From a virus: a stretch of 64,000 nt of DNA. Position numbers and translations under genes: made by a program. The notes under the pieces are model-generated. The model saw only the letters and a program-made list of their open reading frames with translations. It did no database searches and was not told the DNA's origin. The first letter of the stretch is position 1. Each line of letters starts with the position of its first letter. The stretch lies in IMG/VR virus record IMGVR_UViG_3300036939_000074. One strand, 5' to 3'. Below are positions 215 through 58,607 of the stretch, piece by piece.

Positions 215-3200
215 TTAGATGGAAGCCTGGTTAACAGAAGCTCCAAAGTTAGCCGTTAACAAATTGGGGCCGCAATAAACTTTCAGGACTTGCAGGGGAC
301 CCGTGGGGATAAACTCTAGGGTTGCTATTCGTTGCCCGTTAACAATGTCCACCAACACATCTCGCACTCGGTCAAATTCGATTTGACCAGCTGAGGTGCC
401 ACGACCTTCTAGAATCGTGATTTTTACGGCGTCTTCGTAACTAACTTCATTGGTAAAAACGCCTTTGTTGTACTCTTTTCGGGCGTAACCATCGATCACC
501 AATCGCAGCATCTGGGCTAAGGCTGGCGAGTTGGGCTGGAATAAGAGTTCCTGAATACTGGGTGCTTCGAGGAAGACATGGATGATATTTCGTTGTATCC
601 TGGCTGTAGTGAGGAGACGAAACACATCCGAAACCGCTAGGGAATTGGCACCATAAGGAACGATATTTCCTTGTACGGTTTTGATGGGGACAATCCCAGC
701 GGAGTTGAGAATAGCCTCATCTTTGGGAGAGATATTAACCGGTAATCGGTTAATCCGACGCATCGCGGCATTGTTGCCGGCGAATATCATATGATACCCC
801 TCGCTGTCAACTGCATAGCGGCTCTGTCCGCCGTGCCAATCTCCAGTTAGAGGAACCAGGCGGTCACCGGCACCATAAGGGCTGGAAACGAAGGCGTAGG
901 AAGGGAAACAAGCGCTAGCAAAATCCGAGCGGCCTACCTCTTGGTTGATATAGGCTTCTGCCGCAACAGCAGTGCCAAAATTGGCCGGAATTTCAATAAT
1001 GGCTTCATGGGCATAAGCTTCAGCCCATGCACACATGCCTTTTTTCACTGAAACCGCATCCACACCAGGAATGGCCAGACGAATTAAGCCCTGCTGCCGT
1101 CCGAACGTTTCTCGAATCAAGCTGGAATCTTCGGTATCCAGGTGTTTTAGGTACGTCCAAGGATTTATGCTTGTCGTGTCGCCATCGTAACCTTGGCTCA
1201 ACCCTTCCTCGTAGCTCACCAAAAAGAAGCCACCAGAACTAATGGATTGAGATAAGTTGTAGCCACGTCCAACTTCTAGGTAGCCAGCGCGGGTGAGTGA
1301 GGTTAGGGGGGGTAAGTCTCGGGTGAAGCGGGATTCCAAAATCACACTCACATCCGATTCAACCAGTCGAACCTTCCTAGCCTCGCCATTGGCAACCACA
1401 TAATCACCTGGAGCCAGAGTGGAACGAAAATTCGTTGCCGTGCCAATTACTCGCACTCCCGTGGTAGACACATGGCCTTCAAGGATTAAGGGAGCTTTAG
1501 CTCTCTCAATCCGGAAGTACGCTCTGGGCAAGCCGTAGGGGTCGGGGTAAAAGTTTCTGCCCACAGCGGCGGCATAGTCGAAAGCCGCATCGGTGTAGGC
1601 GCGGTTGGTGGTGACTTCCAGCACTTGGCCTGCACCGTTACAGGGACGAACATCGTCACCGGGTGCTGTTGTATAGGCACCTGTCCACAGGTTCTCAACA
1701 GTGATCCAGCGCTGATAGTTTTTGGCACCAGAACGGTAGGCCACATTGTTGACACCGTCGTTGATGACAGGCTCGATGTACAGCGAGTCTTCTGGATCGA
1801 GTGAAACATCCGGCTCGTAAAGAACACGCGAACCGTTGAAGATAATTGAGATGCTGAAATGAGTTAGGGGGAATTTCGTTCCCTGACCAATTTCAACAAA
1901 AATCCCCTCCCCAGCTCCTGGCTCCAAAACAATGGAAGCTTTTTGGTTTTGGGTGGTTAGCTGAGCACCTGTAAAATTAGCGCTGAATTGGCGCTCAACT
2001 TCTAATTGAGTTGCACTAATAACGCGCATGACTTTCACCGAGCCTGCACGGTTGGGGTCTAGGATGAATTGCCCCGGCCTCACGTCTGCCGTGAAAGACG
2101 TGCCGACGCCTGTAACAATCAGGTTGGGGTATTCAACGACTGAATTGGTAAAGCCTTGAGTGAAACCAGACTCTAGGGTGAGACTTGTGTTGCTCTCGAT
2201 AGAGCGAACCGTTCGCACTTGTCTGAGGGTACGTTCCGGCGTTTCAATGTTCACGTACAGGCGCATTCCGGGAGTGACTTCGGCGTTGAATGAAGTGCCT
2301 GACCCCACCAAGGTGAGGTTGTTTCTGGATAGGGTGACATCCGTCGCCGTCGTTGTGGTGAACGCCTCTTCAATCGTTAGGGTTGTGTCACTACTGATGG
2401 ATTCAACGCTGCGCGCCTCCCCTTCAAAGTAGATGTTGTCGCCAACCCGCAGCTCCCTCATGAACATTGTCCCGGTGCCGGTCACAACCTGCCCATTGAT
2501 CTGAGCGGTGCCAGCCATGTTTACTTGGGCTGCATAACTCGCGGTTCCGGTTATGGGGCGGAAAGAGCGATAATCAGCTCTTCCAGCGATCGCAGTGGGT
2601 CCCGATATTCCATCCTGGAGTAGTGAATATTGGGGGGAGACTGTGAAAATCACAAACCCAGCCTCGTTGGCTTCTGTGTTACCGATGATCCGGTAACGCC
2701 TGCCGTTTACAGAACTAAAGAGGGCATCTCCCCCCATGAATTCATTTTTCTTGACCCCAGGAGCGTGTAGGGTGAAGGTTCTCTTGGTTGCCACCAGCAC
2801 CGGGGTTTCTGCGATCCAGTTTTTCTGCCCTGCCCATCGGCCAGCATTGGCACCTGAAATGCGTAGAGCATCGCCACCGAGACGGTTTTTAATGGTGACA
2901 GAAGCTCTACGCCCTCCCAGTCCTGGGCGCATAACCCAAAGCATTCCTCTTCCCGCTGAGGTGTAGTGCCAACCCGCAACCCAGTCAGCGGTGAGGTGGG
3001 TGCCTGTGCGATCGAGTACCCAGCGAGAGTCTTTCGGGTCGCCAAAATTGAGGTGAAACGAGGCCGAGTCGGGAACCGGAACGAACACATCTTCCGGCCC
3101 TCGGGGTAAAATCCCCACACAGCCACAGGTGCCCATTTTGTTGTCCCGGATAACGCCAGCGCCGGAAGTCTCCAAGACTTCCACGCGAGCAGCGCCGACA

Positions 3201-3247
3201 GGGCCGGTGCTATAAGTGCGAATAGATTGAACAGCAGATTGTGGCAT
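215..3247 (-). CDS. Contractile tail sheath protein with inserted beta-repeat domains
   Basis: N-term VGILPRGP...FG-P; C-term LAIPG...VPLTG...LNSAGIVPI...YGANSL...RI pattern of phage sheath proteins; likely start MPQSAV at 3247. Confidence 0.85.
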   Translation of the reverse strand: MPQSAVQSIRTYSTGPVGAARVEVLETSGAGVIRDNKMGTCGCVGILPRGPEDVFVPVPDSASFHLNFGDPKDSRWVLDRTGTHLTADWVAGWHYTSAGRGMLWVMRPGLGGRRASVTIKNRLGGDALRISGANAGRWAGQKNWIAETPVLVATKRTFTLHAPGVKKNEFMGGDALFSSVNGRRYRIIGNTEANEAGFVIFTVSPQYSLLQDGISGPTAIAGRADYRSFRPITGTASYAAQVNMAGTAQINGQVVTGTGTMFMRELRVGDNIYFEGEARSVESISSDTTLTIEEAFTTTTATDVTLSRNNLTLVGSGTSFNAEVTPGMRLYVNIETPERTLRQVRTVRSIESNTSLTLESGFTQGFTNSVVEYPNLIVTGVGTSFTADVRPGQFILDPNRAGSVKVMRVISATQLEVERQFSANFTGAQLTTQNQKASIVLEPGAGEGIFVEIGQGTKFPLTHFSISIIFNGSRVLYEPDVSLDPEDSLYIEPVINDGVNNVAYRSGAKNYQRWITVENLWTGAYTTAPGDDVRPCNGAGQVLEVTTNRAYTDAAFDYAAAVGRNFYPDPYGLPRAYFRIERAKAPLILEGHVSTTGVRVIGTATNFRSTLAPGDYVVANGEARKVRLVESDVSVILESRFTRDLPPLTSLTRAGYLEVGRGYNLSQSISSGGFFLVSYEEGLSQGYDGDTTSINPWTYLKHLDTEDSSLIRETFGRQQGLIRLAIPGVDAVSVKKGMCAWAEAYAHEAIIEIPANFGTAVAAEAYINQEVGRSDFASACFPSYAFVSSPYGAGDRLVPLTGDWHGGQSRYAVDSEGYHMIFAGNNAAMRRINRLPVNISPKDEAILNSAGIVPIKTVQGNIVPYGANSLAVSDVFRLLTTARIQRNIIHVFLEAPSIQELLFQPNSPALAQMLRLVIDGYARKEYNKGVFTNEVSYEDAVKITILEGRGTSAGQIEFDRVRDVLVDIVNGQRIATLEFIPTGPLQVLKVYCGPNLLTANFGASVNQASI

Positions 3248-3362
3248 ATTACAACACAAAAACTAAAAAGGGCGACCGCTATGTAAGCAGCCGCCCTTTG
3301 GGTAGGTTGATAAGTATTTAATTGTTTGAACTATTGCCGTTAATTCTAAAGCAAAAGTGAAA

Positions 3363-7347: not shown

Positions 7348-7557
7348 TTAAGGCTCTACATCAACAGTGATCGCTTTATGGGAGTGTTGTGCATAAGTTA
7401 GATTGCCGGTGGTATCGATTTCGGTGATGGTGTTTAATTCTCCACACCACGGACAGTTCAGCTGCTGTCCCAATTCAAATTTGACACTACCCATTGACCA
7501 CCAGCGCTTACAGTGTTCACAGCCAAAATGATTGAGAATTTCCTGACTAAGTTTCAC
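7348..7557 (-). CDS. Small zinc-ribbon protein (paralog of 7554)
   Basis: CEHC...CPWC. Confidence 0.7.
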   Translation of the reverse strand: MKLSQEILNHFGCEHCKRWWSMGSVKFELGQQLNCPWCGELNTITEIDTTGNLTYAQHSHKAITVDVEP

Positions 7558-7766
7558 GGGCGCTTGATATGAATGACTCTCGCTTTACGTTTGCGTTGGA
7601 CGTAATTCACATTGCCCGTGGCATCAATTGCGGTGATAGTGTTTTCTCGCTTACAGGCTGGACAACAAATCACCTGTTGCGGCCTAAATTTGAGTTTGAC
7701 CATCGACCAGCGAAATTGGCAGTGATCGCAAGTAAAGCGACTCAGAAGTTGTTCCTCAAGTTTCAT
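7554..7766 (-). CDS. Small zinc-ribbon protein (paralog of 7348)
   Basis: CDHC...CPAC; shares WSM and IT-ID-TGN. Confidence 0.7.
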   Translation of the reverse strand: MKLEEQLLSRFTCDHCQFRWSMVKLKFRPQQVICCPACKRENTITAIDATGNVNYVQRKRKARVIHIKRP

Positions 7767-7873: not shown

Positions 7874-8269
7874 TTACTTTTTAGGCCATAATATTTTTGC
7901 AGACCAATAAAGGGGCGAAAACTTGTCTTCTAGCGCCCGTTTGCCTCGGCTGGATTTTGTATTGGCAAATCGTTTGTAGAAGTTATCACGCCGATCTTTG
8001 TCTTCGTGAGTCGTAAAGTCGTCCATAGAGTCATCTCCGAAATGAATCAGTGCCACTTCGCCGTCATCAACGGCTAGAACCATCATCTTTTTTCCAGATT
8101 TATTACTTTTGACGGGTTCATCCGGAGTCCACCACTTCCCTAAATATTCAACTTTGCCATCTTTTTTGGGTAGGTCGGCTAGCTTGCGTTTGGCTTGGAT
8201 GAGTCCGGAGGCGGTTAATGCCAGATTAAAAGCGGCTAGTTCAATTTCAATTAGATTTGGGCTGGACAT
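7874..8269 (-). CDS. Leader-bearing small virus-type protein (DUF5754-like by recollection)
   Basis: KKMMV...HFGD..MDDFTTHEDKDRRDNF..RF...SPLYWS..ILW pattern; N-terminal LIEIELAAFNLAL...LIQA leader. Confidence 0.6.
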   Translation of the reverse strand: MSSPNLIEIELAAFNLALTASGLIQAKRKLADLPKKDGKVEYLGKWWTPDEPVKSNKSGKKMMVLAVDDGEVALIHFGDDSMDDFTTHEDKDRRDNFYKRFANTKSSRGKRALEDKFSPLYWSAKILWPKK

Positions 8270-8316: not shown

Positions 8317-8365
8317 CATATGCAAAATCCCCTGATCGCCGCAAAGCAACCAGGGGGTTTTCGCA

Positions 8366-8686
8366 TTAATCGCCGTTCTGACGGCGATTCTGCCAGAGGT
8401 CTTCCTCTGAGGAGGGATCGTCTTCTACTAAACCGGAGTCAAAGATTTCACGATGCGCCTCTTCAAGCGCCTCTTTGTAGCTGACTAGCCAGTGGCTGGT
8501 CAGCTTGTCCAGCTCTATTAAAAGCTGGTAGATCTTCCTTAAGATTTGCCAGGGGGTGTTACGGACAAATCGGGAAGAGGTTGTGATTCGTTTAAGTTGC
8601 CTTACTGCTGAGCTGATGGCTTTCAGCTCTTCAATAACATGAGGCTCCTTTTTTACTTCTTTGATCCAGTTGTAAAGTTGTTGCAT
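8366..8686 (-). CDS. Hypothetical protein
   Basis: 106-aa helical ORF followed by a hairpin at about 8328-8363. Confidence 0.55.
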   Translation of the reverse strand: MQQLYNWIKEVKKEPHVIEELKAISSAVRQLKRITTSSRFVRNTPWQILRKIYQLLIELDKLTSHWLVSYKEALEEAHREIFDSGLVEDDPSSEEDLWQNRRQNGD

Positions 8687-8783
8687 ACAATCCCTCTGAT
8701 GTAAGTGGCGGGGGTTCCCGCAAACAAAGGGTAGTTGAGGGGTTTTACCCTATGTTTTCTGTCGCTCCCCCATCGCAACGTCA

Positions 8784-9191
8784 TCAGGCAGGTGGGTTAT
8801 AGATTGGGTCGATTAGCATTAAGGGGTGGCCGTATGGAACAAATTCACCATCGTCAACCATAATTTCTATGATGCGCCCTGAAACATCGGCTTCAATTTC
8901 GTACATCAAATCAATTTCGCCAATGGTTTGGCCTTTACGGACGCTATCGCCAAGTCTTACATATGGCTCATTTGGATCGGGATAGCGGTAGAACTTCCCA
9001 GCCATGGGAGCCTTAATTTCTACGCAATTAGAGTTTGGGGTCGGAGTTGCTATCTTGTCTTTAGGGCTACTTTTCGTCTCAGATTTTCGCACCGTTAGTT
9101 CAATATCAGCCGTTTTTAAGGTGAACTCCTTAACATCGGCTTGTACGAGCAGAGTGAGTAATTCGCTTATTTGCCTAAAATCTAATGTCAC
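8784..9191 (-). CDS. AccB/BCCP (biotin carboxyl carrier) homolog lacking the biotinylation lysine
   Basis: Cyanobacterial AccB-type N-term (LDFRQISELL...ELTVRK) and biotinyl domain (APMAGKFYR-P...GQTI...EIEADVSG...YGHPL), but GEID-LMYEIEA where EAMKLMNEIEA is canonical. Confidence 0.85.
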   Translation of the reverse strand: MTLDFRQISELLTLLVQADVKEFTLKTADIELTVRKSETKSSPKDKIATPTPNSNCVEIKAPMAGKFYRYPDPNEPYVRLGDSVRKGQTIGEIDLMYEIEADVSGRIIEIMVDDGEFVPYGHPLMLIDPIYNPPA

Positions 9192-9204
9192 AACTAAATC
9201 CTTC

Positions 9205-9801
9205 TTAAGCAGGGGTGTAGTAGGTGAGGAGCATTGGGGGAGTGTGGCCTAGAGTGTTTAAAGTCCGGAAGAAAGCGATCGCTTTCTTGAGTTCGTCTGT
9301 GGATAAAGTCCAGGGGTGGGGGAATGTGGGATCTTCTCCTAAGAGCGAACGATAGTAGTAACTAGCCCGTCTAGCTGCAAGCATATATCGCTGTAGACGA
9401 GTGCCATTTTCAGAAGTGGTGGCGCTATCAGTAGAGCGAAGCATTGTTTTTTGAGCTAATTCGGCTTTGAGATTGAAGCTATCTCTGAGCGCTTCAAATC
9501 GCTTAATCTTTTTTAATAAAGAACACTCAGCTTTCAACAAGGGAGCGATTTCTTCCATTTTTTGCTTAGTCCTCTCTAGCGGAGGAAGCGGATCTTCTAG
9601 CTGAGATAAGATGTCTCCTAACTTGGCTTGGGCTTCGTCGTAGTCGGTTGTTCCGTAAATTATTTGGTTTGAGGATGCAAATTCATCATCTTCCCACTCG
9701 GAGCGGCTATCGTGTAAATTGTCTGCCGCCATCCCGATCCAATCCGAGATGAGAGAAATTTGGTAGGTATCCAGTTCGAGCGTAATTTTGTATTTTTTCA
9801 T
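9205..9801 (-). CDS. Hypothetical protein
   Basis: ORF, likely start MKKY at 9801. Confidence 0.55.
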   Translation of the reverse strand: MKKYKITLELDTYQISLISDWIGMAADNLHDSRSEWEDDEFASSNQIIYGTTDYDEAQAKLGDILSQLEDPLPPLERTKQKMEEIAPLLKAECSLLKKIKRFEALRDSFNLKAELAQKTMLRSTDSATTSENGTRLQRYMLAARRASYYYRSLLGEDPTFPHPWTLSTDELKKAIAFFRTLNTLGHTPPMLLTYYTPA

Positions 9802-9877
9802 ATATCTGCGTCGGTCTATGTGGCGGTTACCGAGATGCCACCAGTTGCTCGTTAAAGCCCTTGGTGGCAACGGCATC

Positions 9878-14191: not shown

Positions 14192-17100
14192 TCAAGAGAA
14201 AACATCTTCCAAACTGTTCACCACTTCAAGTAGTTGCAATTGAGATTGATGCCAAAGGATGAACCATTCAAAAGTTTTGCTGTGGCTGCACTCCAGGCAT
14301 TGCATTCTCAGAAGTCGCACGGCTTGAGCGAGGAAGATATCCGTAATCCAGGGAGGGGGGGGGAGGGTTTTAATCCACTCAATCACGGTTTCATCAACAC
14401 CTGTGTAGATGGCGGGGGTTGGCGCTTCAACAATGCCCCCTGGTTCCCACGCCTCTTGTTCATCCTCCTTGGAGTCTAACTGGCTTCGCAGCTCTAACTC
14501 TTTGGCGGTTAGGGCGCTGACTTCATCCCCTAGTTTGCTGACTTCGCTGGTGAGGTAGGTAATGCGTTCTGGTAGTAACCGTTGATGTTCTCGTTCAGCA
14601 TCGATCTTCTTGCTTAATCGGTCAACTTCGTACCCGTGACGAACCTCCCGGAGAGTGGTGCGGATGGCGTTGATGAACTTCTCACTAAATACCCAACTCA
14701 GCGAGACGGGATAAAAGATGCGGTAGGTTTGCTCGTTGTGGGTGTACGGAACTCCGGCGAGGTCAAGGCTCTCAATACTCTTACCACTGAAAAAGCTCAC
14801 CACAATGTCTAAGCCCGCAATTTGACCAATTTTTTTATGTTGGCAACGCTTACCGGCTTTGATGATGGCGTTGATTTTCCCCTGGAGGACAATATCCGCC
14901 TCTTGCACTTTGGTGGTGAGGGTTTTGCCGATTTGGATTGAGAAGGTGTCTCCGGTGAGGGAGCCGTGTTCTTTTACGGTTTCTTGGTCTACTTGGCTAG
15001 CTTTGTATTTGGCTTCTAGAACACCCAATACAGAGCCGCAACTCTCTGAGTAGTAGCGGTATTGGGAGAGGCGGGTTTGCTGTTCTTTGAAGGTGTGGTT
15101 TTTTTGCCGCAGCTGGTCTTTAACTTGGGCATATTCCAGCGCTGCTGTATTGCCGCTCATGATGGCGGCGGCCACGAGATAATACGAAGCGTCATCGCCG
15201 ATATCTTGGGTGCGACGGGATTCAAGCTTGCCGCTGGCATACTGGTGAGCCATGGCAGCGCGGTGCCGCACAAGATTGGCTTTCCAAGCGTCGAACCCAG
15301 GCTGATTGCCAGCCCCTAAAGTCCCGTAGTCAAAAGCCCAAACATCGTCGTGGGGGTTCCCCTGTCGGACAACTCGCCCTAATCTCTGCAATGGGGGTGA
15401 CCAATCTAAATCGAGGAGATGAGCGGCGATCGCTCCGCCATACCAAGTGTTTCGGACGCCTTGTGCATTCACACCCGTACCTCCGCGACGTGTCGAAGCG
15501 AGCAGCATCGCGGTTTCACCATTATTCATCTTATCAAACAATTTCTGTTTTGTCTTGGCATCGTACTCGTGGATAAAGGCGACTTCTGTTTCCGGAACTC
15601 CCAATGCAACCATGCAATCTCGGATGTACCGATAAACCGTGAATCGGTTATGAGGTTTGGGTACCCCACTGTTACAAAATATGAATTGAGTCGCCTTAGT
15701 TTCTCGCGTGGCCTGCCATACCCACCACGCATTGTGGATCAAGCGATGTAGCTTCGTATCGCACTCAACAGTTTCCACCTCTTTAACGAGCCGGGGGTCA
15801 ATGGACGCGGCTGAACCCATGCTGGTTAGGGTGAGAGGGTTATGGTTTGTCCAGTTGCCAGTTTTTGGGTGGACGTATTTCGGGGGCCTGCGCTTCTGCC
15901 ATGCTTTCAGCCAGTTTTTGATGTCTTCGTTGATGGCCGCTTGCTCGTCGGATAAGGGGGAGGTGATGGTGTAGCGGTGCAGTTGGGGGCGCTTGATTCC
16001 AACTTTTTCCGGGTCAGGGGCGAAGTCGGTAAAAGTGGCCGCTAAATCTAACATCTCGTCTTGGTTTTTGAAGCCACTGATTCGAGTTTTCTTCTTAATC
16101 CCACCCATACTCGTAAATTCTGGCTGGGTGGAAATTTCCCCAAAGTTACCAATGAAGCTATCGAAGTGGGCGTTACCCGTTTCTTCTATCTCATCAGGGG
16201 CAAAGAGCCTCAATAAGTTGAACATCTCACTAAAACTGACTTCTGGAAATAAGCCCGTTCCACCCCCAATTCTGCCACCGTTTCTCAACGTCCAATTGAA
16301 TTTCAATAGGGAGTTGAGAGAGCGTTGAGTGTCTGTATTGGTAATACCTGAAATGGTTCCGGCAATCTTACTGGGGTAGCGGATGTTCTTCAACATTTGA
16401 AGTTCATCAAAGCAGATGAGGGGCCTTTTTGCAATGTCTTCCCAGTTTAAAGCGATGGAATTGCGGCAATAATGACTAACGGCTTTTTCCAAAGAGCGTT
16501 TTAGGACTTTGATGGTTTTATCGCGCTCTTTTTCTCCCATTAGTTTAACGTATTCGTCGCGAGTTAGTCGTTGCTGTTTAGGCACAAATTTAACTTGCCC
16601 ACTATTACTCACTCGAATTGCCCCTTTATCCAACAAGTCATCCATGACTGGCATCATGGATTGGGGGTCATTCCCCGCGTCTTCAATCGCGCCAATGACT
16701 TCTAGGCGCTCAATTTCTTGGCGCAAGGAGTGGGCGTGAGCAAGCAGGTCTCCGTGGAGTAAAGACTCTTTTGTTGCATCAACTTCTTGCAAGTAACCTT
16801 CAATGACCGACAGTTCTTCAGAGATGTATTGAACCTTCGTCCGCCACCCAATGGGGATGCCATAGAAGGCAGTGTGAGCCAAGATGATGCAGTCATAATT
16901 TCCGGTTTGGCAGCGCCGTAATGTGGCGTTGCGAGTTTGTGCCCCCCCATCTTCGGCAATTAATAGTTTAGCCTTGGGATAAAGGGTTTTAAATTGCCCG
17001 ACAAACTGGGAGACGGTATCGTTGAGGACAGAGATAAATGCCTTGTCAACTAACCCTAATCGCTTGCATTCCATTGCAACGGCACAGTAAACAAAGGTTT

Positions 17101-19591
17101 TGCCGTAGCCTACGGGATGCAATAGGAAAAGCCGACGTTCTTGGATGCCACGAGCGATCGCATTTTTCTGATGCGGCTTGAGTTGGATGGCTGAGTTGCT
17201 TCCGGGTAGCTTCAAGTAACTTCCGTCATACTGAGGGCGTAAAGGGCGGGGATAGATGCTGTTGTAAATCAGCGTCAAACGTAGGGCGCGTTCTGCATCT
17301 AGCCACAGCCACTTTTTAAACTCTTCCTTGAGTCGTTCGAGGGCAGAGTTGGCCGTAACCGTTGCCGCTTCAGATGCCTCTACGTCAATTGCATCATCAT
17401 CGTAAATTTTGATACGGAATGGCGTCATGTTCAGCGCCGCTTCCAATACCTGCAAGGCATTTTTCCCGCCTCGCTTGCCCTCAGCTCCTGTACTGGAGAA
17501 TTCCGATTTTTGGGCATATTCTTTAGGGCCATCAACACCCCACCGGGCCAGTTCCGGAATGTGCTCAACCTTATATTGACTCGCTCTGCCTCCAAATTTG
17601 TCACTACAGAACTGTTGGATATCGGAGGTTGGAATCCAAGAGGCACCAGCACCCGCGTCAATGAAGATTTCAGCATCTAGCTCACTATCAATATCCAACT
17701 TTTGTTTGAGGCCAGAAGCAATTGAAGCGCGGATTTCGGCTGTGGCTGGCGGTAAGATGAAAGAAGATATGTAAACATAGTGCCCGTCCTCATTCTTTGT
17801 AGTGAGGACTTTTTCGTTGTCGAACAACCACTTTTCGAGATACAGTTCTCCGTCTGTTTCTGCCAGTTGACGCACGGTGCGAAGTTTGGCACGAGTGTCG
17901 CCGGATAGGTATTGATATCGAGAAACCCATTCCCCTAAATCGGGGTCAAAAAAGATTTCAGAATTTTTACCCTTGAGTAGACCAATGGCGTCTTTTTCAG
18001 AGCATTCCAACAGGACAGCGATGAAGGGTAAATCAATGCGGCCACGACGGCTCAATGATTCGTGAACCGCGTCTGTTGGGACACTAATTTTTAGTGTTCC
18101 TTCTTGGCGCATGGGCGCATTAACCCGGGACGTGAGTATTTCAGCGGGTTTATACTCCCAGGTTTTTGAACCCGTCTCCGACTCGAAGCAAATTTCTTCT
18201 TCTAGCGCGCAGCAGGTTGCAACCAACTCGGAGTCGTCGGCAAATACCTTTAAGGTGCTGGGACGCTTGCGGCGGTTGAGTAAGTTGCCATACTTTTTCA
18301 CAAACAGATTGTACTGCGTCACCAGTTGGGCACGCCGCTCTTCCATATCTTCTCGGTCGTTGAGTTCGGCATCCACAAGGCTATCGAGAGCGTTTTTGAG
18401 TTCAATACCTGCGGTGATGCGCTCGGCATGTTCTGTGATATGAATGAGGCCGACGCCTCGCTGATACTGGTAGAGTTTCCCTTCTTTCAGTAGAAAGCTA
18501 CCCGGATTAAGACCAATGCAACTTTCGGGTAGGAGAACTTCTTTGAGGGCAGGGCGCTGGAAGTTGGGCAGTTCGTAAATCAGGTTGAGTTTGGCAAAGG
18601 CATTAATAATGGCAGCTTTGATATCAACCTGTTTATCCCCCGCGACGGCGATGCGGGAGTTTCCATACAGCTGGGAGTGGGACCAGGTGCCCAAAACCTT
18701 ATCGGGATTTTCGATAAAGTAACGGTTGACGCACAAGGGTTCATCATTTTCGTCGAGTATGGGAGTGGCAACCACATCTAACCAGTTGGGGTTGGGTTCT
18801 GGGGAATGGGGGCATTTCTGTAAAATGATTAAATCTGCCGTGACTTGTGTGCCAGCTTCTGCAAGCGCGGTATTGGGCAGTCTCACCGCTCCCACCAGAC
18901 GAGCGCCCTGGGCGTGGAGGTATTTGGGGAACTCAGAATCCAAGGTACCAATACTCGTAATCAGAGCCATCAGTCCACCCGATCGCAGTTTATCAAGCGA
19001 CTTAGCGAAGAAATAATTATGAAGTGTGCTGCTGGGGATGTCTTCATAATCCGGGTCGAAGGGAGGCACGAGACCAAACGGGACGTTGCCAATTACCAGA
19101 TCAAAGGTACTATTCGGGATGTCTGTAGATTCAAATCCACAGCCATAAATTGCGATCGCATCGTCAATGAGGATTTTTGCGATCGCAGAGGCGGATGAAT
19201 CGATTTCGACCAAGCACCATTCTGAGCGCGCACGGTTCCAAGTTGTCTGCAAGCCGGGGAAGAGGCCGATATTGCTTGAAGGTTCCAGGATGCGACCGTA
19301 GGAGAAGCCCAGCTGTTCTAAGACATGCCACATCGCTTCTACGATGGGGGCGGGGGTAAGGAAAGCGTTATCGCTATTGAGGTCAAGATCGGGAACCAGC
19401 TCTAAAACTTCTTTATTAATGGCAGACGCTACCGTTCCCCAACCGACCCATTTAGCTAGCAAGTCCTGATCAGCTGCGGTGATGGGGTGGGGATTTTTTT
19501 TGTAGCGACGCAGCCATTTTAAGCAAGCGATGTTGTTGTTTAGCTTAGTTTTGACCCCGCCTTTAACAGGGAGATTACGGAATTGGTACAT
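14192..19591 (-). CDS. DarB-like N6-adenine methyltransferase / SNF2-type helicase fusion
   Basis: LAKWVGWG, ILEPSSNIGLF (motif I), DLVIGNVPFG (motif IV), HPVGYGKT (Walker A), CFDELQ (DExx), QRLGRVVRQGN (motif VI). Confidence 0.85.
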   Translation of the reverse strand: MYQFRNLPVKGGVKTKLNNNIACLKWLRRYKKNPHPITAADQDLLAKWVGWGTVASAINKEVLELVPDLDLNSDNAFLTPAPIVEAMWHVLEQLGFSYGRILEPSSNIGLFPGLQTTWNRARSEWCLVEIDSSASAIAKILIDDAIAIYGCGFESTDIPNSTFDLVIGNVPFGLVPPFDPDYEDIPSSTLHNYFFAKSLDKLRSGGLMALITSIGTLDSEFPKYLHAQGARLVGAVRLPNTALAEAGTQVTADLIILQKCPHSPEPNPNWLDVVATPILDENDEPLCVNRYFIENPDKVLGTWSHSQLYGNSRIAVAGDKQVDIKAAIINAFAKLNLIYELPNFQRPALKEVLLPESCIGLNPGSFLLKEGKLYQYQRGVGLIHITEHAERITAGIELKNALDSLVDAELNDREDMEERRAQLVTQYNLFVKKYGNLLNRRKRPSTLKVFADDSELVATCCALEEEICFESETGSKTWEYKPAEILTSRVNAPMRQEGTLKISVPTDAVHESLSRRGRIDLPFIAVLLECSEKDAIGLLKGKNSEIFFDPDLGEWVSRYQYLSGDTRAKLRTVRQLAETDGELYLEKWLFDNEKVLTTKNEDGHYVYISSFILPPATAEIRASIASGLKQKLDIDSELDAEIFIDAGAGASWIPTSDIQQFCSDKFGGRASQYKVEHIPELARWGVDGPKEYAQKSEFSSTGAEGKRGGKNALQVLEAALNMTPFRIKIYDDDAIDVEASEAATVTANSALERLKEEFKKWLWLDAERALRLTLIYNSIYPRPLRPQYDGSYLKLPGSNSAIQLKPHQKNAIARGIQERRLFLLHPVGYGKTFVYCAVAMECKRLGLVDKAFISVLNDTVSQFVGQFKTLYPKAKLLIAEDGGAQTRNATLRRCQTGNYDCIILAHTAFYGIPIGWRTKVQYISEELSVIEGYLQEVDATKESLLHGDLLAHAHSLRQEIERLEVIGAIEDAGNDPQSMMPVMDDLLDKGAIRVSNSGQVKFVPKQQRLTRDEYVKLMGEKERDKTIKVLKRSLEKAVSHYCRNSIALNWEDIAKRPLICFDELQMLKNIRYPSKIAGTISGITNTDTQRSLNSLLKFNWTLRNGGRIGGGTGLFPEVSFSEMFNLLRLFAPDEIEETGNAHFDSFIGNFGEISTQPEFTSMGGIKKKTRISGFKNQDEMLDLAATFTDFAPDPEKVGIKRPQLHRYTITSPLSDEQAAINEDIKNWLKAWQKRRPPKYVHPKTGNWTNHNPLTLTSMGSAASIDPRLVKEVETVECDTKLHRLIHNAWWVWQATRETKATQFIFCNSGVPKPHNRFTVYRYIRDCMVALGVPETEVAFIHEYDAKTKQKLFDKMNNGETAMLLASTRRGGTGVNAQGVRNTWYGGAIAAHLLDLDWSPPLQRLGRVVRQGNPHDDVWAFDYGTLGAGNQPGFDAWKANLVRHRAAMAHQYASGKLESRRTQDIGDDASYYLVAAAIMSGNTAALEYAQVKDQLRQKNHTFKEQQTRLSQYRYYSESCGSVLGVLEAKYKASQVDQETVKEHGSLTGDTFSIQIGKTLTTKVQEADIVLQGKINAIIKAGKRCQHKKIGQIAGLDIVVSFFSGKSIESLDLAGVPYTHNEQTYRIFYPVSLSWVFSEKFINAIRTTLREVRHGYEVDRLSKKIDAEREHQRLLPERITYLTSEVSKLGDEVSALTAKELELRSQLDSKEDEQEAWEPGGIVEAPTPAIYTGVDETVIEWIKTLPPPPWITDIFLAQAVRLLRMQCLECSHSKTFEWFILWHQSQLQLLEVVNSLEDVFS

Positions 19592-23232: not shown

Positions 23233-23664
23233 CTAGCTTTCTTGATAAGGCAAGAAATTTCTGCCTCTTACCCATTGGGGTGGCTTGATCGCTAGGTTGA
23301 CCACGCTTTCAATACCTCGAATGCTTGGGTCGCCAGCCAAGTAGCCTATGCCACGATTAAGGTGCGCCAAAAACTGCTCGGCTAAAACCTCGTCGTTGAC
23401 GGGCAAGCCATCTTCTTTCACCCGCTGTCTAAGTGCCAGGATGAAAAGGTCACTAAAGTTGCCACCGAACGTTTTCCAGGCAATTTCTAAATTGCTGTCA
23501 GCTGGGTACCTCGTCGGGCTGGGTTTCGTCGCTTCTGCGAGTGAGAGACAAAATGCCCATCGACAAGTGATGTTGTAACTGGGGATTTTGGTGCGTCGCT
23601 TGATGGTGATTAGGTTGTAGCGCGCCTTCTCACTCAATCGGATGCGTTCAACGGGGGCTTGCAT
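23233..23664 (-). CDS. dndE: DNA phosphorothioation protein DndE (orphan)
   Basis: ERIRLSEKA..L..IKRRTKI..YNI-CRWAFCLSLAE...PADSNLEIAWKTFGG...FLAHLNRGIGYLAG, closely matching cyanobacterial DndE; start MQAP at 23664. Confidence 0.9.
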   Translation of the reverse strand: MQAPVERIRLSEKARYNLITIKRRTKIPSYNITCRWAFCLSLAEATKPSPTRYPADSNLEIAWKTFGGNFSDLFILALRQRVKEDGLPVNDEVLAEQFLAHLNRGIGYLAGDPSIRGIESVVNLAIKPPQWVRGRNFLPYQES

Positions 23665-25363
23665 GGGATTCGTCCTCTCCCGGTGGCAGCATCTCAACTC
23701 GCTTCATCGGCTGTTCTGGAGTTAATTCGATGGGTTGAGAGGTCTTTTTCTCAAGGGTAATTTTAGGAGCACTCGCCGGCTTGAGGGTTGGGACAATTTT
23801 CTTGGGCTTTTCTGGCTCTAAGGCTGGAATGCTATCTAACCCTTGAGACGGGAGTACCTTGATTTCCAGTTTGGGTTTTTCTGGCTCTAAGGCTGGGATG
23901 CTATCTAACCCTTGAGATTTGAGTACCTTGATTTCCAGTTTGGGCTTTTCTGGCTCTAGGGCTGGAATGCTATCTAATCCCTGAGAGGGGAGTACCTTAA
24001 ATTCCGGCTTGGACGGCGGGAGCGCTGGACTGTCTTTGTAGCTTGCAGGGCCAAACACTTTACTTTCTGCTGCACCAAGTTCCATTAACTCAGTTTCAAT
24101 CTCAATCGACTCTCTGATTTGGATGGGGCAATAGACCCATGAATCATCTACTACCACCCGGGTTGTGTCGAAGTAATTGAGATATTCTCCTTTGAGCTGC
24201 AACAGTTGATAAAAGGAGATGATGAGCGGTCCCCAAAAGTCTTGGTCATTCTCACTTAAAAACACCTCTGGGTCAACCGTTTCTGGATTGGGGTAAACGA
24301 ATTCGGGCATGACAAAGTAGCCCGTGAGAATAGCCGCTTTGGCGATTAGGGGGTCTCTTTGGCTCCCTGTGAGGTTGCGAGTGTAGTTAGAAGCCGCCAG
24401 CACATCGGCTGGGGTAATTTCTGGTACAAACAAAAATTGCTCGGTGTCTCTCCCTAACCCTAGGTCGGAGAACAAGACACTATGATAGCCAACCGGATTT
24501 TCAAATTCAGGTCTGTGGCAATAGCCAACTCGATTTAGGAGCCAGCCAAACCAATCGCAACTATCCCACAACAAGAAAAAAGCTGGGTTCCAGACGGCAA
24601 CCAGTCGGTTGTGGGCTTGTCCATCCCAGGAAATCTTCTTGTGTAAATGGGCTTCTAGAGTAGCAAAATCATCAACTTCACCCGGGTCATAATCTTTCTC
24701 GTCGGGGAAGTCGGTCATGCAAGGATGACCCAATGACCAGCAGCACCAATCGATCAAATATTCCGCTGCGGCAATCCCGTGCCGTTTACTCAAAGACCAG
24801 TGTTCGGTGATTTGAGAGAGCAAATACTCCAAGTATTGCTCGGTTCGTTTGTGGATTGAACCCAATGTGAGTTGGGGGATGGGTGCTTTGCAGCGCGATC
24901 GCTCGTAGTCTAGCCATCGCCCATTGCCGGATTCAATTTCAGCCTGAATTAATAATTTGAGTGCCCAGCCGGGAGTGTTGCCAATCACAACTCGGTTGGT
25001 CAGTTCTACTCCAGGTTGGTACTGAGTAAAACCATGGTCGTCAATGGATATAATGCCACGAGTCCACCCGGTGGGAGTGTAGCCGGGGCGGCGCTCAAAG
25101 CCATTTCTAGGGGCGGGGAAGGGTGTATTGTCCAGTCGATACCGGAGAGCATCTAGCGTGAGAGAATCTAGTTCCTGGATTTTCTCCTTGGTTGGGTTCG
25201 CATACAGCGGGGAATCTTTATAAATCCCAGCAACCGTCTCGCGCATCACCCACCAATTCATCGGTTCGGTAATGTTGGATGGGCGCGCATCATCCATCAT
25301 CTGGGCATACATCCAGCGGTCGTTCAATGCCGGAAGGAGTACGTCTTGTATGTTATTTTCCAT
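23648..25363 (-). CDS. Hypothetical protein, distant paralog of 20194 with C-terminal 23-aa repeats
   Basis: PIPQLTL...EYLIDWCCWSLGH...DWFGWLL...AASNYTRNLTG...GYFVMP. Confidence 0.55.
   Translation of the reverse strand: MENNIQDVLLPALNDRWMYAQMMDDARPSNITEPMNWWVMRETVAGIYKDSPLYANPTKEKIQELDSLTLDALRYRLDNTPFPAPRNGFERRPGYTPTGWTRGIISIDDHGFTQYQPGVELTNRVVIGNTPGWALKLLIQAEIESGNGRWLDYERSRCKAPIPQLTLGSIHKRTEQYLEYLLSQITEHWSLSKRHGIAAAEYLIDWCCWSLGHPCMTDFPDEKDYDPGEVDDFATLEAHLHKKISWDGQAHNRLVAVWNPAFFLLWDSCDWFGWLLNRVGYCHRPEFENPVGYHSVLFSDLGLGRDTEQFLFVPEITPADVLAASNYTRNLTGSQRDPLIAKAAILTGYFVMPEFVYPNPETVDPEVFLSENDQDFWGPLIISFYQLLQLKGEYLNYFDTTRVVVDDSWVYCPIQIRESIEIETELMELGAAESKVFGPASYKDSPALPPSKPEFKVLPSQGLDSIPALEPEKPKLEIKVLKSQGLDSIPALEPEKPKLEIKVLPSQGLDSIPALEPEKPKKIVPTLKPASAPKITLEKKTSQPIELTPEQPMKRVEMLPPGEDESHASPR
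23802..24008. repeat. 69-bp tandem repeat x3 (coding KVL-SQGLDSIPALEPEKPKLEI)
   Basis: Units at 23802, 23871, 23940. Confidence 0.9.
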
Positions 25364-37915: not shown

Positions 37916-39352
37916 ATGCTAATTACTTCCACTACCTTTTCTCGACAACGCATTAAGAGGCTCTCCGCTTTGCTCATATGTGCCCTAGCTAGTTCCCTTG
38001 TTAAAGGTGGGATATTTGACCAGCGCGTTACCTTGCTCCGTAATCAAATTAATTCTGTACACCAAGAAATCGTTAGCTTGGAGAAGCTTTCAAAAGCTGT
38101 TCGGTTAGCTGAATTTAATGAGATGGCCGCTGTTTTAGCAAGAGGTCGTTATGTTGATGAATATTTTGTGGATTATTACAAAGCGAAGGAGTCAGCCAAC
38201 TTAGAGATTGAATTCCTTTCTCGTACACTTGATACCCGTAAACTCAAGGCAGAACTTAATTCAAGGTTTACTGAGTTAGACAAAACAATTCAGCTCTTAA
38301 AACTAAAAAGAGATAAGGCAACACTCGATAACCTGACGACAAATAATCGCCTTTTATCAATGAAGCGGATAGTCGGTCATATAAACCAAATCGAAGCCCG
38401 ATCTTATTACAAACAGAACATTTTAACTCAAAAACTCAATCGCAATTTATGGTTGAGATACATCCTGTGGGTATTAACTTTAGTTTTTGCTGCCTCATCT
38501 TTTAGTTATGCGGCTTTTCTTCTATTAGCAACAAGGCGAGAACGATTAAAAACTCTAAAAACCCTACAGCTTAAAACGAGTGAGCAGGAAGAAAAGCTAC
38601 ATCAATTACAAGAAGAATCCCAAAAAACACATGCTGAGACCATGGCTCGGTTGCAAAGCAGCGAGGATAAGGAAGCTTTAAAAAATGTCATCCTTTCTAC
38701 TTTTTTGCACGACTCTCGTACCTATCTGGCTATTGTTAGAAGTTCAGCCGAGATTATGGAGGAATACGAAGGGAAGTTGAATTTACAGCAAAAAGAGAGG
38801 CATTACGGCAAAATTCATCGAGCTGTCGATTCATTATTGAGCTTAACAGATAATTCTCTACTGTTACTAAAAGACACAGATGCCAAGGTCAACACGTACT
38901 CCTTGGATTTAAGGCTTTTTTGTGAAGAGGAAATCGATAAATGGTGCCTTTTATGTAAAGGGACAGGACGAACTTTTAAATTTGAACAAAGTGGCATGGA
39001 ACGCCCTGTCATAACGAGTAAAATGCTTCTGACTCGTATGTTCGACAATTTGGTCGGAAATGCGATCAAGTATTCGGACCAAGAAATTGTGATTCGCCTA
39101 GATTTCACGAATCCCTCTCAAGTTGTACTTTCTGTAATTGATGCAGGTCCCGGAATTAAAGAGACCGAATTGCAGGGAATCTTCGATACTTGTATTCGCG
39201 GCAGCAACTCTGGGAGTGCGTCTGGCTTTGGGATTGGCCTTGCCAGTGTAAAAAGAGCAGCCCAAGTCTTGGAGCTTGGGCTGGATGTGTGGAGTGAAGA
39301 GGGGGTGGGAAGTGAATTTAGGATTATTTTTCGGGAGCCTCTAACTCCTTGA
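37916..39352 (+). CDS. Membrane sensor histidine kinase (orphan)
   Basis: Two TM segments; H-box FLHDSRTYL; NLVGNAIKYS, VIDAGPGI, GFGIGL. Confidence 0.9.
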   Translation: MLITSTTFSRQRIKRLSALLICALASSLVKGGIFDQRVTLLRNQINSVHQEIVSLEKLSKAVRLAEFNEMAAVLARGRYVDEYFVDYYKAKESANLEIEFLSRTLDTRKLKAELNSRFTELDKTIQLLKLKRDKATLDNLTTNNRLLSMKRIVGHINQIEARSYYKQNILTQKLNRNLWLRYILWVLTLVFAASSFSYAAFLLLATRRERLKTLKTLQLKTSEQEEKLHQLQEESQKTHAETMARLQSSEDKEALKNVILSTFLHDSRTYLAIVRSSAEIMEEYEGKLNLQQKERHYGKIHRAVDSLLSLTDNSLLLLKDTDAKVNTYSLDLRLFCEEEIDKWCLLCKGTGRTFKFEQSGMERPVITSKMLLTRMFDNLVGNAIKYSDQEIVIRLDFTNPSQVVLSVIDAGPGIKETELQGIFDTCIRGSNSGSASGFGIGLASVKRAAQVLELGLDVWSEEGVGSEFRIIFREPLTP

Positions 39353-57392: not shown

Positions 57393-58607
57393 TTAGGACT
57401 GAGCATTAGGCGGAATCGGGGAGCCGCCACTGACTTGAGCTGGCGTTGGTGAATCAGGATACAAGCGCCTGAGACTCATCGCGACCGTACCTTGTGGGAA
57501 AAACACACGCAACTGCCAGATCCCCTGCCCCCGATTGAGACATTTGAGCGTCCCATAAAATAAGACCATTCGTTCCCTAACTAAGGGATTGACTTCTTTG
57601 TAGTCGGCAATCTCAAAAAACTGGGGGTCAAAGCGACTATGAATTTTATGGCCGTTGACATAGGTATCGGCGTTCGTTCCGCCTATTGGTGGTACGCCTT
57701 TCCATTTCATCAAGCTCATATCGATGAGCCAAAAATCCACATAATCTGGAGTCGGTTGCCCGTCGGCTCCATTGCCTTGACCAATTCCATCTCGGATAAA
57801 CTTGGAAGGAACAATGGGGACTGGGGCTGAAGAACCTGGAATCAAAACAGCCGCTGCTCGCTTGTCAGCCGGAACCTCACTAAAATTAATAACGGAGAGT
57901 TTACTCCCACCCTTCATCGACGCCTCTTCTTCTAAGAAGAATTGGGTTCCGAGTACTGAAGAAAAGATATGGGTGATTTTCCGGTTGACCACCTCATCGC
58001 CAACCGCTCGGCCTGCAACCCCCCGTAACATGGGTGCAATCTTATCCCCAGCGCGAGTGTCGCACCAGAAGGCATGGTCACGCGGCATCTGCTTGGCCCA
58101 ACCGTTAAATTCCATGGGGCGCAACGAAGCATCGCCATGAATTAGCGATCGCTCCAGTAATTTGCACGCACTGGAATAAAGGTTGAACGTTTTAGTGTTC
58201 AACGTGTTGCCGTAAGGCCGATTATTGGCAAAATCCAAAGATTGGGCGTAATGACTCAATTTAAAAGAGCCACCCCCAGCTTTGTTGCGTTCTCCAGGGT
58301 CAGATAAATCGGCTGCGGGATAACTACTAGGAGTACGGATTAAGCCAGCCGTCGTATATTTATCAATAAACCCCGTCGGCATCTCAACAACATCCAATAT
58401 TTCTTGGTTGTTGTCAGCGGTTGAGAGTTCTTTGGTAATTAACGGCCAAATTGTAATTTCATCAGAAGTGACCAAGTAGCGGCCAATTTCTTCGTTAAAA
58501 TCCTGATTTACGATGAAACCATCCAACAATTGAGCCGAAGCTTTTAAATCAAAAAAGCCATCCCGCTCATCAGTAAACAGTGGTGGAGAAGACTCGGTAA
58601 CAAACAT
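57393..58607 (-). CDS. Major capsid protein (HK97-type fold, inferred)
   Basis: 404 aa directly after the protease/scaffold; LERSLIHGDASLRPMEFNGW resembles E--LI-GD----P-EFDGL of capsids; followed by a hairpin. Confidence 0.7.
   Translation of the reverse strand: MFVTESSPPLFTDERDGFFDLKASAQLLDGFIVNQDFNEEIGRYLVTSDEITIWPLITKELSTADNNQEILDVVEMPTGFIDKYTTAGLIRTPSSYPAADLSDPGERNKAGGGSFKLSHYAQSLDFANNRPYGNTLNTKTFNLYSSACKLLERSLIHGDASLRPMEFNGWAKQMPRDHAFWCDTRAGDKIAPMLRGVAGRAVGDEVVNRKITHIFSSVLGTQFFLEEEASMKGGSKLSVINFSEVPADKRAAAVLIPGSSAPVPIVPSKFIRDGIGQGNGADGQPTPDYVDFWLIDMSLMKWKGVPPIGGTNADTYVNGHKIHSRFDPQFFEIADYKEVNPLVRERMVLFYGTLKCLNRGQGIWQLRVFFPQGTVAMSLRRLYPDSPTPAQVSGGSPIPPNAQS

What the first reader, a model, noticed from the sequence alone, without database searches (positions are those of the whole stretch)
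8784..9191. Phage AccB/BCCP mimic with the biotin-acceptor motif cleanly deleted
Seen: DNA 8880-8940 (minus) reads GQTIGEID-LMYEIEADVSG. Canonical cyanobacterial AccB reads GQTVCIIEAMKLMNEIEADVSG, so exactly A-M-K is missing in frame. The N-terminal assembly segment and the rest of the biotinyl fold are kept, and the linker is short. Established: plant plastid BADC proteins are non-biotinylated BCCP-like modulators of acetyl-CoA carboxylase. Inference: a viral BADC analogue that enters host ACCase, or sequesters BirA or PII, to redirect carbon away from fatty-acid synthesis.
Basis: partly seen in the sequence, partly recalled or inferred. Interest (0 to 1): 0.82.

Follow-up and report, generated by a model that had tools for sequence, protein, structure and literature searches.

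The report
Phage BCCP copy without biotin lysine
A phage-like element from desert soil-crust cyanobacteria carries a remodelled copy of the host's biotin carrier subunit of acetyl-CoA carboxylase that has lost the biotin-holding lysine, so it cannot carry biotin and most likely acts as a non-catalytic decoy on host fatty-acid synthesis; this function is untested.

Summary
ORF 8784-9191(-) encodes a 135-aa protein derived from cyanobacterial AccB/BCCP. It keeps the N-terminal segment, the "thumb" and the biotinyl-domain fold (AlphaFold pLDDT about 96; TM 0.83-0.87 to E. coli and Arabidopsis BCCP). The linker is about 30-45 residues shorter than in AccB. The hairpin that carries the biotinyl lysine is three residues shorter.

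The gap is not an assembly error or a one-off. A 73%-identical sister gene shares it, on a syntenic metagenome contig (L001) and on contigs from two further studies.

- The sister reads GLI---KLMYEIEA. The deleted residues were therefore probably E-A-M, and the lysine was lost later in this lineage (K to D).
- The rest is not "cleanly" kept. 18 of 45 positions that are invariant in cyanobacterial AccB changed on a long stem branch. dN/dS is 0.5. In the sister lineage a 2.4-kb Rep_1-bearing insert sits after codon 5.

No other relative was found among 1.8 billion representative proteins or 2.9 million viral contigs.

Best reading, at about 0.4: a BADC-like non-catalytic decoy acting on host acetyl-CoA carboxylase. 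Binding and inhibition are inference only. Rivals are PII or BirA titration, a decaying captured gene, and an unrelated new function. I rate interest as moderate.

The parts
8784..9191 (-). CDS of the 135-aa BCCP/AccB-like protein (GTG start, TGA stop)
   Evidence: the only BCCP-like gene in the window by tblastn
9199..9204 (-). GAAGGA Shine-Dalgarno-like hexamer 7 nt upstream of the GTG start; it overlaps the TAA stop (9205-9207) of the upstream ORF 9205-9876
   Evidence: read directly
9087..9191 (-). Residues 1-35: AccB-type N-terminal segment, predicted as helix 5-18 plus a beta-hairpin (22-26, 31-35). In E. coli BCCP this segment mediates biotin carboxylase binding and oligomerisation (my knowledge).
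   Evidence: alignment A2; AF2 pLDDT 84-89
9024..9086 (-). Residues 36-56: short linker, disordered in the model, about 30-45 residues shorter than in cyanobacterial AccB
8808..9023 (-). Residues 57-128: biotinyl-type barrel-sandwich domain with the thumb (YPDPNEPY, residues 70-77)
   Evidence: Pfam PF00364; AF2 pLDDT about 96; Foldseek TMt 0.83-0.87 to 9a87, 4hr7 and 1bdo
8892..8927 (-). Residues 89-100 (TIGEI-DLM-YEIE): the hairpin, three residues shorter than in BCCP. D94 (codon 8910-8912) takes the place of the biotinyl lysine.
8687..8783 (-). Intergenic stretch downstream of the gene, almost 100% identical to L001 although the CDS is only about 84% identical. Possible regulatory element or translation-initiation region of the next gene.
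   Evidence: fold z -2.1; no Rfam match
8366..8686 (-). Downstream 106-aa ORF of unknown function, syntenic in L001 (91% aa identity, dN/dS 0.13) and probably co-transcribed with the BCCP-like gene
   Evidence: no Pfam, PHROG or Atlas match
8329..8356 (-). Terminator-like hairpin (12 pairs) followed by a T-rich tail, after the 106-aa gene

Best explanation
The gene is a host-derived acetyl-CoA carboxylase biotin carrier (AccB/BCCP) that a phage or phage-plasmid of filamentous or soil-crust cyanobacteria captured and then remodelled into a non-catalytic subunit mimic. It keeps the parts that let BCCP dock into the enzyme: the N-terminal segment, the thumb and the biotinyl-domain fold. It has lost what catalysis needs: the hairpin lysine that carries biotin and most of the swinging-arm linker. 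The most likely mechanism is therefore a dominant-negative or decoy action. On this reading the protein occupies BCCP sites on host biotin carboxylase, or forms mixed oligomers with host BCCP, and so lowers malonyl-CoA and fatty-acid synthesis during infection or carriage, as plant BADC proteins do. Shown here: ancestry, fold, loss of the lysine, conservation of the gap in two lineages, and long-term maintenance of the reading frame. Inferred: every binding and every metabolic effect.
For: (1) AccB ancestry. TIGR00531 E 2.9e-25 with matches in both the N- and C-terminal parts. The best cellular relatives are cyanobacterial AccB from Trichodesmium, Nostocales, Leptolyngbyaceae, Waterburya, Microcoleus and Scytonema. 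The pair nests inside the cyanobacterial AccB clade, SH-aLRT 94.
(2) Docking parts kept. The N-terminal 35 residues align with AccB throughout. The C-domain model has pLDDT about 96, and its top fold matches are the BCCP biotinyl domains 9a87, 4hr7 and 1bdo.
(3) Catalytic parts lost. The hairpin has a 3-residue gap and D sits where the lysine should be. The linker is about 30-45 residues shorter.
(4) Not an artefact. The same gap is in L001 (73% identical, syntenic) and in contigs of runs X3 and X5 from other studies.
(5) The frame was maintained. dN/dS is 0.50, below 1. The indel inside the CDS is in frame. A frame this open after 150 or more random substitutions has a probability of about 0.01, and the stem branch is 1.16 changes per site.
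(6) No accC or other ACCase gene in the window, so the protein cannot serve a phage-encoded enzyme (Pfam scans).
(7) Precedent. Plant BADCs are BCCP homologues without the biotinylation motif. They associate with biotin carboxylase and lowered ACCase activity in vitro (PMC12706156).
Against: - No binding or activity evidence of any kind.
- dN/dS of 0.5 is much higher than in the neighbouring genes (0.13 and 0.0).
- 18 of 45 AccB-invariant sites are altered. This fits relaxed constraint or a new partner as well as it fits a decoy.
- The family is tiny: two lineages, none in 2.9 M viral contigs.
- In the sister lineage a 2.4-kb insert follows codon 5 and no ATG/GTG/TTG precedes the N-terminal segment. 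The N-terminal docking segment is therefore either dispensable there, or that copy is inactivated.
- The fitness benefit to a phage of throttling fatty-acid synthesis is assumed, not known.
Confidence: 0.4

Rival explanations
1. Captured host gene in slow decay: a former accB picked up by the phage, now without function and drifting.
For: dN/dS is 0.50, against 0-0.13 for neighbouring genes. Nearly half of the AccB-invariant positions are changed. The sister copy is interrupted by a 2.4-kb Rep_1-bearing insert after codon 5. Only two lineages are known.
Against: Both copies keep a long open frame. The stem is 1.16 changes per site, and the probability of a stop-free frame is about 0.01 at 150 or more random substitutions. 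The internal indel is in frame. The fold-determining residues are kept (pLDDT about 96). dN/dS is still below 1. The window copy has an intact start with a Shine-Dalgarno-like site.
Confidence: 0.2
2. Titration of a BCCP-binding regulator rather than of the enzyme. The decoy binds PII (GlnB), which binds BCCP in Synechocystis and binds both BCCP and BADC in Arabidopsis, and so shifts carbon/nitrogen signalling. Alternatively it binds the biotin ligase BirA.
For: PII-BCCP interaction controls acetyl-CoA levels in Synechocystis (PMC5080355). PII also interacts with the non-biotinylated BADCs (PMC12706156). The C-terminal domain alone may be what is expressed in the sister lineage (GTG start at L001 3761). 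That would point to a partner of the biotinyl-type domain rather than of the N-terminal segment.
Against: The residues of BCCP that PII contacts are not known to me, so conservation could not be tested. BirA recognises the very hairpin that is shortened here, which makes stable BirA capture less likely (my knowledge of the BirA-BCCP complex, not tested). No binding data.
Confidence: 0.15
3. Neofunctionalised barrel-sandwich domain with a target unrelated to ACCase, for example another host or phage protein, possibly the co-transcribed 106-aa protein.
For: The stem branch is long and many surface positions that are invariant in AccB have changed. The gene has conserved synteny, and probably shares an operon, with a strongly constrained 106-aa ORF. 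Barrel-sandwich hybrid domains occur in many unrelated proteins (weak RnfC_N, HlyD and M23 matches).
Against: The AccB-specific N-terminal segment and the thumb are still recognisable. These are hard to explain if ACCase is no longer the target. No candidate partner has any annotation.
Confidence: 0.15
4. Still a biotin carrier: a functional, unusually short BCCP that is biotinylated at another lysine or through the shortened hairpin.
For: The sister lineage keeps a lysine next to L-M at the tip of the shortened hairpin.
Against: The window protein has D at that position and no other lysine in the hairpin. The score is below the TIGR00531 cut-off. The linker is too short for a swinging arm. 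No carboxylase partner is encoded nearby.
Confidence: 0.03

Closest known systems
Cyanobacterial AccB (BCCP subunit of heteromeric acetyl-CoA carboxylase; TIGR00531; E. coli BCCP structures 1bdo, 4hr7)
   Same: Same three-part layout: N-terminal segment, linker, and biotinyl domain with a thumb. 42-49% identity to cyanobacterial AccB. Nests in the cyanobacterial AccB clade. The C-domain fold superposes at TM 0.83-0.87.
   Different: No biotinyl lysine. The hairpin is 3 residues shorter and the linker about 30-45 residues shorter. 18 of 45 invariant positions are changed. The score is below the family cut-off. The gene lies on a phage-like element without other acc genes.
[quoted passage not shown]
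   Same: BCCP homologues that lack the biotinylation motif and so cannot be catalytic. BADCs associate with biotin carboxylase, modulate ACCase and bind PII (PMC12706156). This is the functional model proposed here.
   Different: The origin appears independent (a viral capture from a cyanobacterium, inferred; BADCs were not included in my tree). The lysine was lost through a hairpin deletion. The protein is much smaller and has a short linker. No binding or inhibition is shown.
Cyanophage host-derived metabolic regulators such as phage CP12 (my knowledge, not checked here)
   Same: A phage-borne copy of a small host regulatory or structural protein, thought to redirect host carbon flow without itself being an enzyme.
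   Different: A different pathway (the Calvin cycle rather than fatty-acid synthesis). CP12 is widespread in marine cyanophages, whereas this gene is known from two lineages only.
BCCP homologue without lysine upstream of accC in a bacterial order (earlier scan note e1-4202245, unchecked AI note)
   Same: A prokaryotic BCCP-like protein that has lost the biotinyl lysine, read as a BADC-like partner.
   Different: That one is chromosomal, sits in the accB position next to accC, and lost the lysine by substitution (ALGI). This one is on a mobile element, has no accC, and has a deletion.

Membership tests
AccB/BCCP (TIGR00531 equivalog) | Whole-protein score at or above the curated cut-off (115.2 bits) | tested here: not met
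   89.5 bits, E 2.9e-25
AccB/BCCP (TIGR00531 equivalog) | Biotinyl lysine in the (A/V)MK(M/L) hairpin | tested here: not met
   3-residue gap, with D94 at the lysine position. 144 of 151 related proteins carry the motif.
AccB/BCCP (TIGR00531 equivalog) | Biotinyl-domain barrel-sandwich fold with the ACC-type thumb | tested here: met
   AF2 pLDDT about 96. Foldseek matches to 9a87, 4hr7 and 1bdo, TMt 0.83-0.87, E as low as 5e-7. The thumb YPDPNEPY aligns with APDEAPF.
AccB/BCCP (TIGR00531 equivalog) | N-terminal segment that binds biotin carboxylase | tested here: met
   Met at sequence level only. Residues 1-37 align without gaps with cyanobacterial AccB, about 57% identical to P0004. Binding itself was not tested.
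AccB/BCCP (TIGR00531 equivalog) | Long flexible Pro/Ala-rich linker (swinging arm) | tested here: not met
   About 20 residues, against about 50-65 in cyanobacterial AccB. The PMxG motif is at residue 61, against about 87-107.
AccB/BCCP (TIGR00531 equivalog) | Acts with AccC, AccA and AccD encoded in the same genome | tested here: not met
   No biotin carboxylase-like sequence in the 64-kb window by tblastn. None appeared in the Pfam scans of about 40 ORFs. The host genome is not available.
BADC-like non-catalytic BCCP homologues | BCCP homologue lacking the biotinylation motif | tested here: met
BADC-like non-catalytic BCCP homologues | Binds biotin carboxylase or BCCP and lowers ACCase activity | not testable with these tools
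   Needs pull-down and an enzyme assay. The one complex prediction gave no verdict (see Tried and rejected).
BADC-like non-catalytic BCCP homologues | Belongs to the plant/algal BADC clade | not tested
   BADC sequences were not in my tree. The pair's position inside cyanobacterial AccB suggests an independent origin.

The most novel reading that the evidence does not exclude
A temperate phage or phage-plasmid of soil-crust cyanobacteria uses a dominant-negative copy of the host's biotin carrier subunit to throttle acetyl-CoA carboxylase. This would be a viral counterpart of plant BADC proteins that arose independently by capture of accB and deletion in the biotin hairpin. It would be the first viral factor known to act on the committed step of host fatty-acid synthesis. 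The same element is reported to carry other stripped-down host subunits, which would suggest a general 'faulty subunit' strategy.
Probability: 0.3. Interest if true: 0.75.

Novelty: new variant of a known kind. Interest (0 to 1): 0.55.

Why it matters
If the decoy reading is right, it adds fatty-acid synthesis, at its committed and most regulated step, to the host pathways that cyanophages rewire. It would also show that the BADC solution of plants, a biotin-less carrier that poisons or tunes the enzyme, has arisen independently in a virus. The protein is small and easy to express, so it could serve as a genetic tool to dial down ACCase in cyanobacteria. My full-text searches found no paper describing a phage-borne BCCP-like protein. 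The case is weakened by the tiny family, the relaxed selection and the interrupted sister copy. For now it is a well-defined, testable lead and not yet a discovery.

Tried and rejected
- Complex prediction of the protein with Nostoc PCC 7120 biotin carboxylase (ACCC_NOSS1): no verdict, score 0.00, controls not run. This is not evidence either way.
- RNA evidence: no RNA holder was listed for the gene or its surroundings.
- Word-based protein search: only the window's own protein and P0002.
- Single-protein scans of viral contigs and genome contigs: no relatives.
- Profile scans of metagenome contigs and genome contigs: only ordinary AMK-bearing BCCPs at 54% identity or less.
- Profile scan of viral contigs: one hit, L162. 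It is a high-GC fragment in which a 537-aa ORF with a biotin-carboxylase-type N-terminal sequence follows the BCCP-like gene, so it looks cellular.
- INPHARED phages: no DNA match. The protein hits are ordinary accB genes on records that look like bacterial DNA or fragments.
- Plasmids: only ordinary accB and biotin/lipoyl proteins at 41% identity or less.
- No whole genome is held for the window. An exact look-up of P0001 found no contig.
- Self-splicing intron as an explanation of the L001 insert: no Rfam intron match, rejected.
- The conserved intergenic stretch 8687-8783: no Rfam family, no exact copy in viral contigs, only a mild fold signal.
- Atlas searches of ORF 23648-25363 and of the 106-aa neighbour gave nothing usable.
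- PHROG and Pfam scans left the immediate neighbours unannotated, apart from the DUF5754 protein at 7874-8269.
- Assembly error as the cause of the gap: rejected, because independent contigs share it.

Full report
**1. What is there**

Window 8784-9191 (minus strand) is a 135-codon ORF with a GTG start.
- A GAAGGA hexamer lies 7 nt upstream of the start, directly after the TAA stop of the preceding ORF (9205-9876).
- Pfam finds Biotin_lipoyl (E 1.1e-13).
- NCBIfam's best model is the BCCP equivalog TIGR00531 (E 2.9e-25, two matched stretches), but at 89.5 bits it is below the 115.2-bit cut-off.
- phmmer against solved structures aligns residues 59-128 with E. coli BCCP (4hr7, 1bdo) and opens a three-residue gap exactly where E. 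coli has A-M-K.

**2. Is the gap real and unusual?**

An exhaustive HMMER search of 1.84 billion representative proteins gave 9,501 hits. Only one is close: P0002, 73% identical. All the others are ordinary BCCPs at about 50% identity or less.

Of the 151 proteins retrieved, 144 carry [AVSG]MK[LMIV]. Only the window protein and P0002 have the three-residue gap.

P0002 lies on an ENA metagenome contig (L001). That contig is syntenic with the window on both sides of the gene.

Contigs from two further studies (runs X3, biocrust, and X5, soil) carry L001-type sequence over parts of the gene; the X3 contig (8799-9166) spans the hairpin and shows no insertion there. The window itself comes from a biocrust metagenome. 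Assembly error and one-off decay are therefore excluded.

**3. Which residues were lost**

P0002 reads GLI---KLMYEIEA and the window reads GEI---DLMYEIEA. MAFFT aligns K or D with the biotinyl lysine and deletes E-A-M.

I polarised the differences with 21 cyanobacterial AccB sequences. L001 keeps the ancestral state at most differing sites, including this K. The window lineage is the more derived one (tip branches 0.35 against 0.07).

The likely history is a three-residue deletion in the hairpin in the common ancestor, followed by K to D in the window lineage. The consequence for the window protein is the same either way: it has no lysine in the hairpin.

**4. Anatomy**

- *N-terminal segment.* Residues 1-35 align without gaps with the AccB N-terminal segment (about 57% identity to P0004 by eye). 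They are modelled as a helix plus a beta-hairpin (pLDDT 84-89).
- *Linker.* Residues 36-56 form a short linker that is disordered in the model. The PMxG motif begins at residue 61, against about 87-107 in full-length cyanobacterial AccB.
- *C-terminal domain.* Residues 57-128 form the biotinyl-type domain with pLDDT about 96. The shortened hairpin has strands 89-93 and 97-100 with the turn D94-L95-M96.
- *Fold matches.* The top Foldseek hits are Arabidopsis BCCP1 (9a87) and E. coli BCCP (4hr7, 1bdo), with TM 0.83-0.87 normalised on the target.
- *Thumb.* The ACC-type thumb is present and is one residue shorter than in L001 and AccB.

**5. Origin**

The best named relatives are cyanobacterial AccB. 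In a 72-sequence IQ-TREE quick tree the pair sits inside the cyanobacterial AccB clade (SH-aLRT 94), among Waterburya, Microcoleus and the Nostocales. It sits on a stem of 1.16 changes per site, many times longer than typical AccB branches.

Of 45 positions that are at least 90% conserved in cyanobacterial AccB:
- 23 are kept in both lineages;
- 18 are changed in both (three of them deleted);
- 3 are changed only in the window (including K to D);
- 1 is changed only in L001.

The remodelling therefore goes well beyond the hairpin.

**6. Selection**

Between the two lineages dN/dS is 0.50 (N-terminal part 0.62, C-domain 0.45). The downstream 106-aa gene has 0.13, and the DUF5754 gene has 0.0 at dS 0.23.

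The frame is open in both copies and the internal indel is in frame. Random substitution at the observed divergence keeps a stop-free frame in 10% of trials. At 150 or more substitutions, the order implied by the stem, the figure is about 1%.

My reading is that the gene was maintained by selection for most of its history, under weaker or shifting constraint than its neighbours.

**7. The sister copy is interrupted**

L001 1-1241 matches window 10395-9176, and L001 3679 onward matches window 9174 downward. About 2.4 kb of extra DNA therefore sits after codon 5 in L001. The sequence there reads GTG ACA TTA GAT TTT AAA TAC TAA.

The insert carries an ORF that matches the C-terminal half of Rep_1 (8.5e-26). 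It has no Rfam intron match. The same junctions occur in run X3.

The rest of the L001 gene stays in frame for 156 codons. It has no ATG, GTG or TTG before the GTG that gives the 103-aa call. Either only the linker and C-domain are made there, or a rare start codon is used, or that copy is inactive. This weakens the case that the N-terminal docking segment is essential.

**8. Context**

The window is a phage-like mobile element:
- an HK97-fold capsid lead for 57393-58607 (Atlas score 0.98, TM 0.71 to SU10_MCP-type clusters);
- tail-fibre-like repeats in 215-3259 and a DarB-like giant protein at 14192-19591;
- a DUF5754 protein that matches a "minor head protein and DNA pilot" PHROG;
- ParB and ParA;
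- a Toprim/primase-like protein.

This agrees with an earlier scan note that calls it a phage-plasmid. No tRNA genes were found. No whole genome is held.

There is no biotin carboxylase and no second BCCP-like gene in the window. The gene is probably co-transcribed with the 106-aa ORF, and a terminator-like hairpin follows at 8356-8329.

**9. Mechanism**

The protein cannot carry biotin, has lost the swinging arm, and has no enzyme of its own to serve. Yet it keeps the AccB-specific N-terminal segment, the thumb and the fold.

The simplest reading is a non-catalytic subunit mimic that enters or titrates the host ACCase biotin carboxylase sub-complex. Plant BADCs are the documented precedent. 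They are BCCP homologues without the biotinylation motif that associate with biotin carboxylase, lowered ACCase activity in vitro, and also bind PII (PMC12706156).

PII binds BCCP in Synechocystis (PMC5080355), so PII titration is a live rival. Decay and an unrelated new function cannot be excluded.

My confidences are:
- ACCase decoy: 0.40
- decay: 0.20
- PII or BirA titration: 0.15
- other new function: 0.15
- still a biotin carrier: 0.03

**10. Novelty**

Full-text searches found the BADC literature but no description of a phage-borne BCCP-like protein. Among 2.9 million viral contigs the only BCCP-like hit looks cellular.

The scan's own notes list a chromosomal lysine-less BCCP in a bacterial order and a phage biotin-acceptor domain with an intact lysine. 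Neither is related in sequence to this one.

I class this as a new variant of a known kind: a BADC-like non-catalytic BCCP, here viral and made by a hairpin deletion. Interest is moderate at 0.55, because the function is inferred and the family is very small.

Noticed in passing
window 8687-8783 (minus strand) and L001 4073-4160: The 97-nt intergenic stretch after the BCCP-like stop codon is almost 100% identical between the two lineages, although the flanking coding sequence is only about 84% identical. It contains the GCGGGAACCCCCGC and GGGG...CCCC hairpins. The RNA fold z-score is -2.1. It has no Rfam match and no exact copy in viral contigs.
   Followed up: partly
L001 1242-3678: A 2.4-kb insert sits after codon 5 of the sister BCCP-like gene. 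It carries an ORF (2016-2348) that matches the C-terminal half of the rolling-circle Rep_1 family (8.5e-26), and it has a hairpin (AAGGGATAACG...CGTTATCCCTT) at its left end. It may be an integrated small rolling-circle replicon or an HUH-type mobile element. The same junctions are seen in contigs of run X3.
   Followed up: partly
window 7874-8269 (minus strand): The DUF5754 protein (131 aa) has dN 0 at dS 0.23 against L001, which is extreme purifying selection. It matches phrog_220 'minor head protein and DNA pilot' (8.5e-23).
   Followed up: partly
window 7348-7557 and 7554-7766 (minus strand): Two tandem, overlapping 69- and 70-aa paralogues have paired CxxC motifs (zinc-ribbon-like): MKLSQEILNHFGCEHCKRWWSM... 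and MKLEEQLLSRFTCDHCQFRWSM...
   Followed up: no
protein P0009 (233 aa, JGI contig of 185 kb): This is another BCCP-like protein without the AMK motif. It reads GEVKALGVSTKI where BCCPs have IIEAMKLMNEIE, with no length change. It is unrelated to the phage pair and may belong to the lysine-less bacterial BCCP group noted earlier by the scan.
   Followed up: no
window 9154-9200: In runs X3 and X5 a 47-nt stretch covering the gene's start region occurs, with 7 mismatches, in contigs whose flanks on both sides differ from the window and from L001. This suggests a third arrangement or a further relative that I could not retrieve.
   Followed up: no
window 62723-63196 and 63168-63641 (plus strand): A staphylococcal-nuclease-like ORF (SNase, 3.5e-8) overlaps the start of a DUF488 ORF (6.5e-21) near the right end of the window.
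   Followed up: no
window 37916-39352 (plus strand): An orphan histidine-kinase-type ATPase domain protein (HATPase_c 2.3e-17; phrog_857 3.8e-30) lies next to the ParB/ParA partition genes.
   Followed up: no
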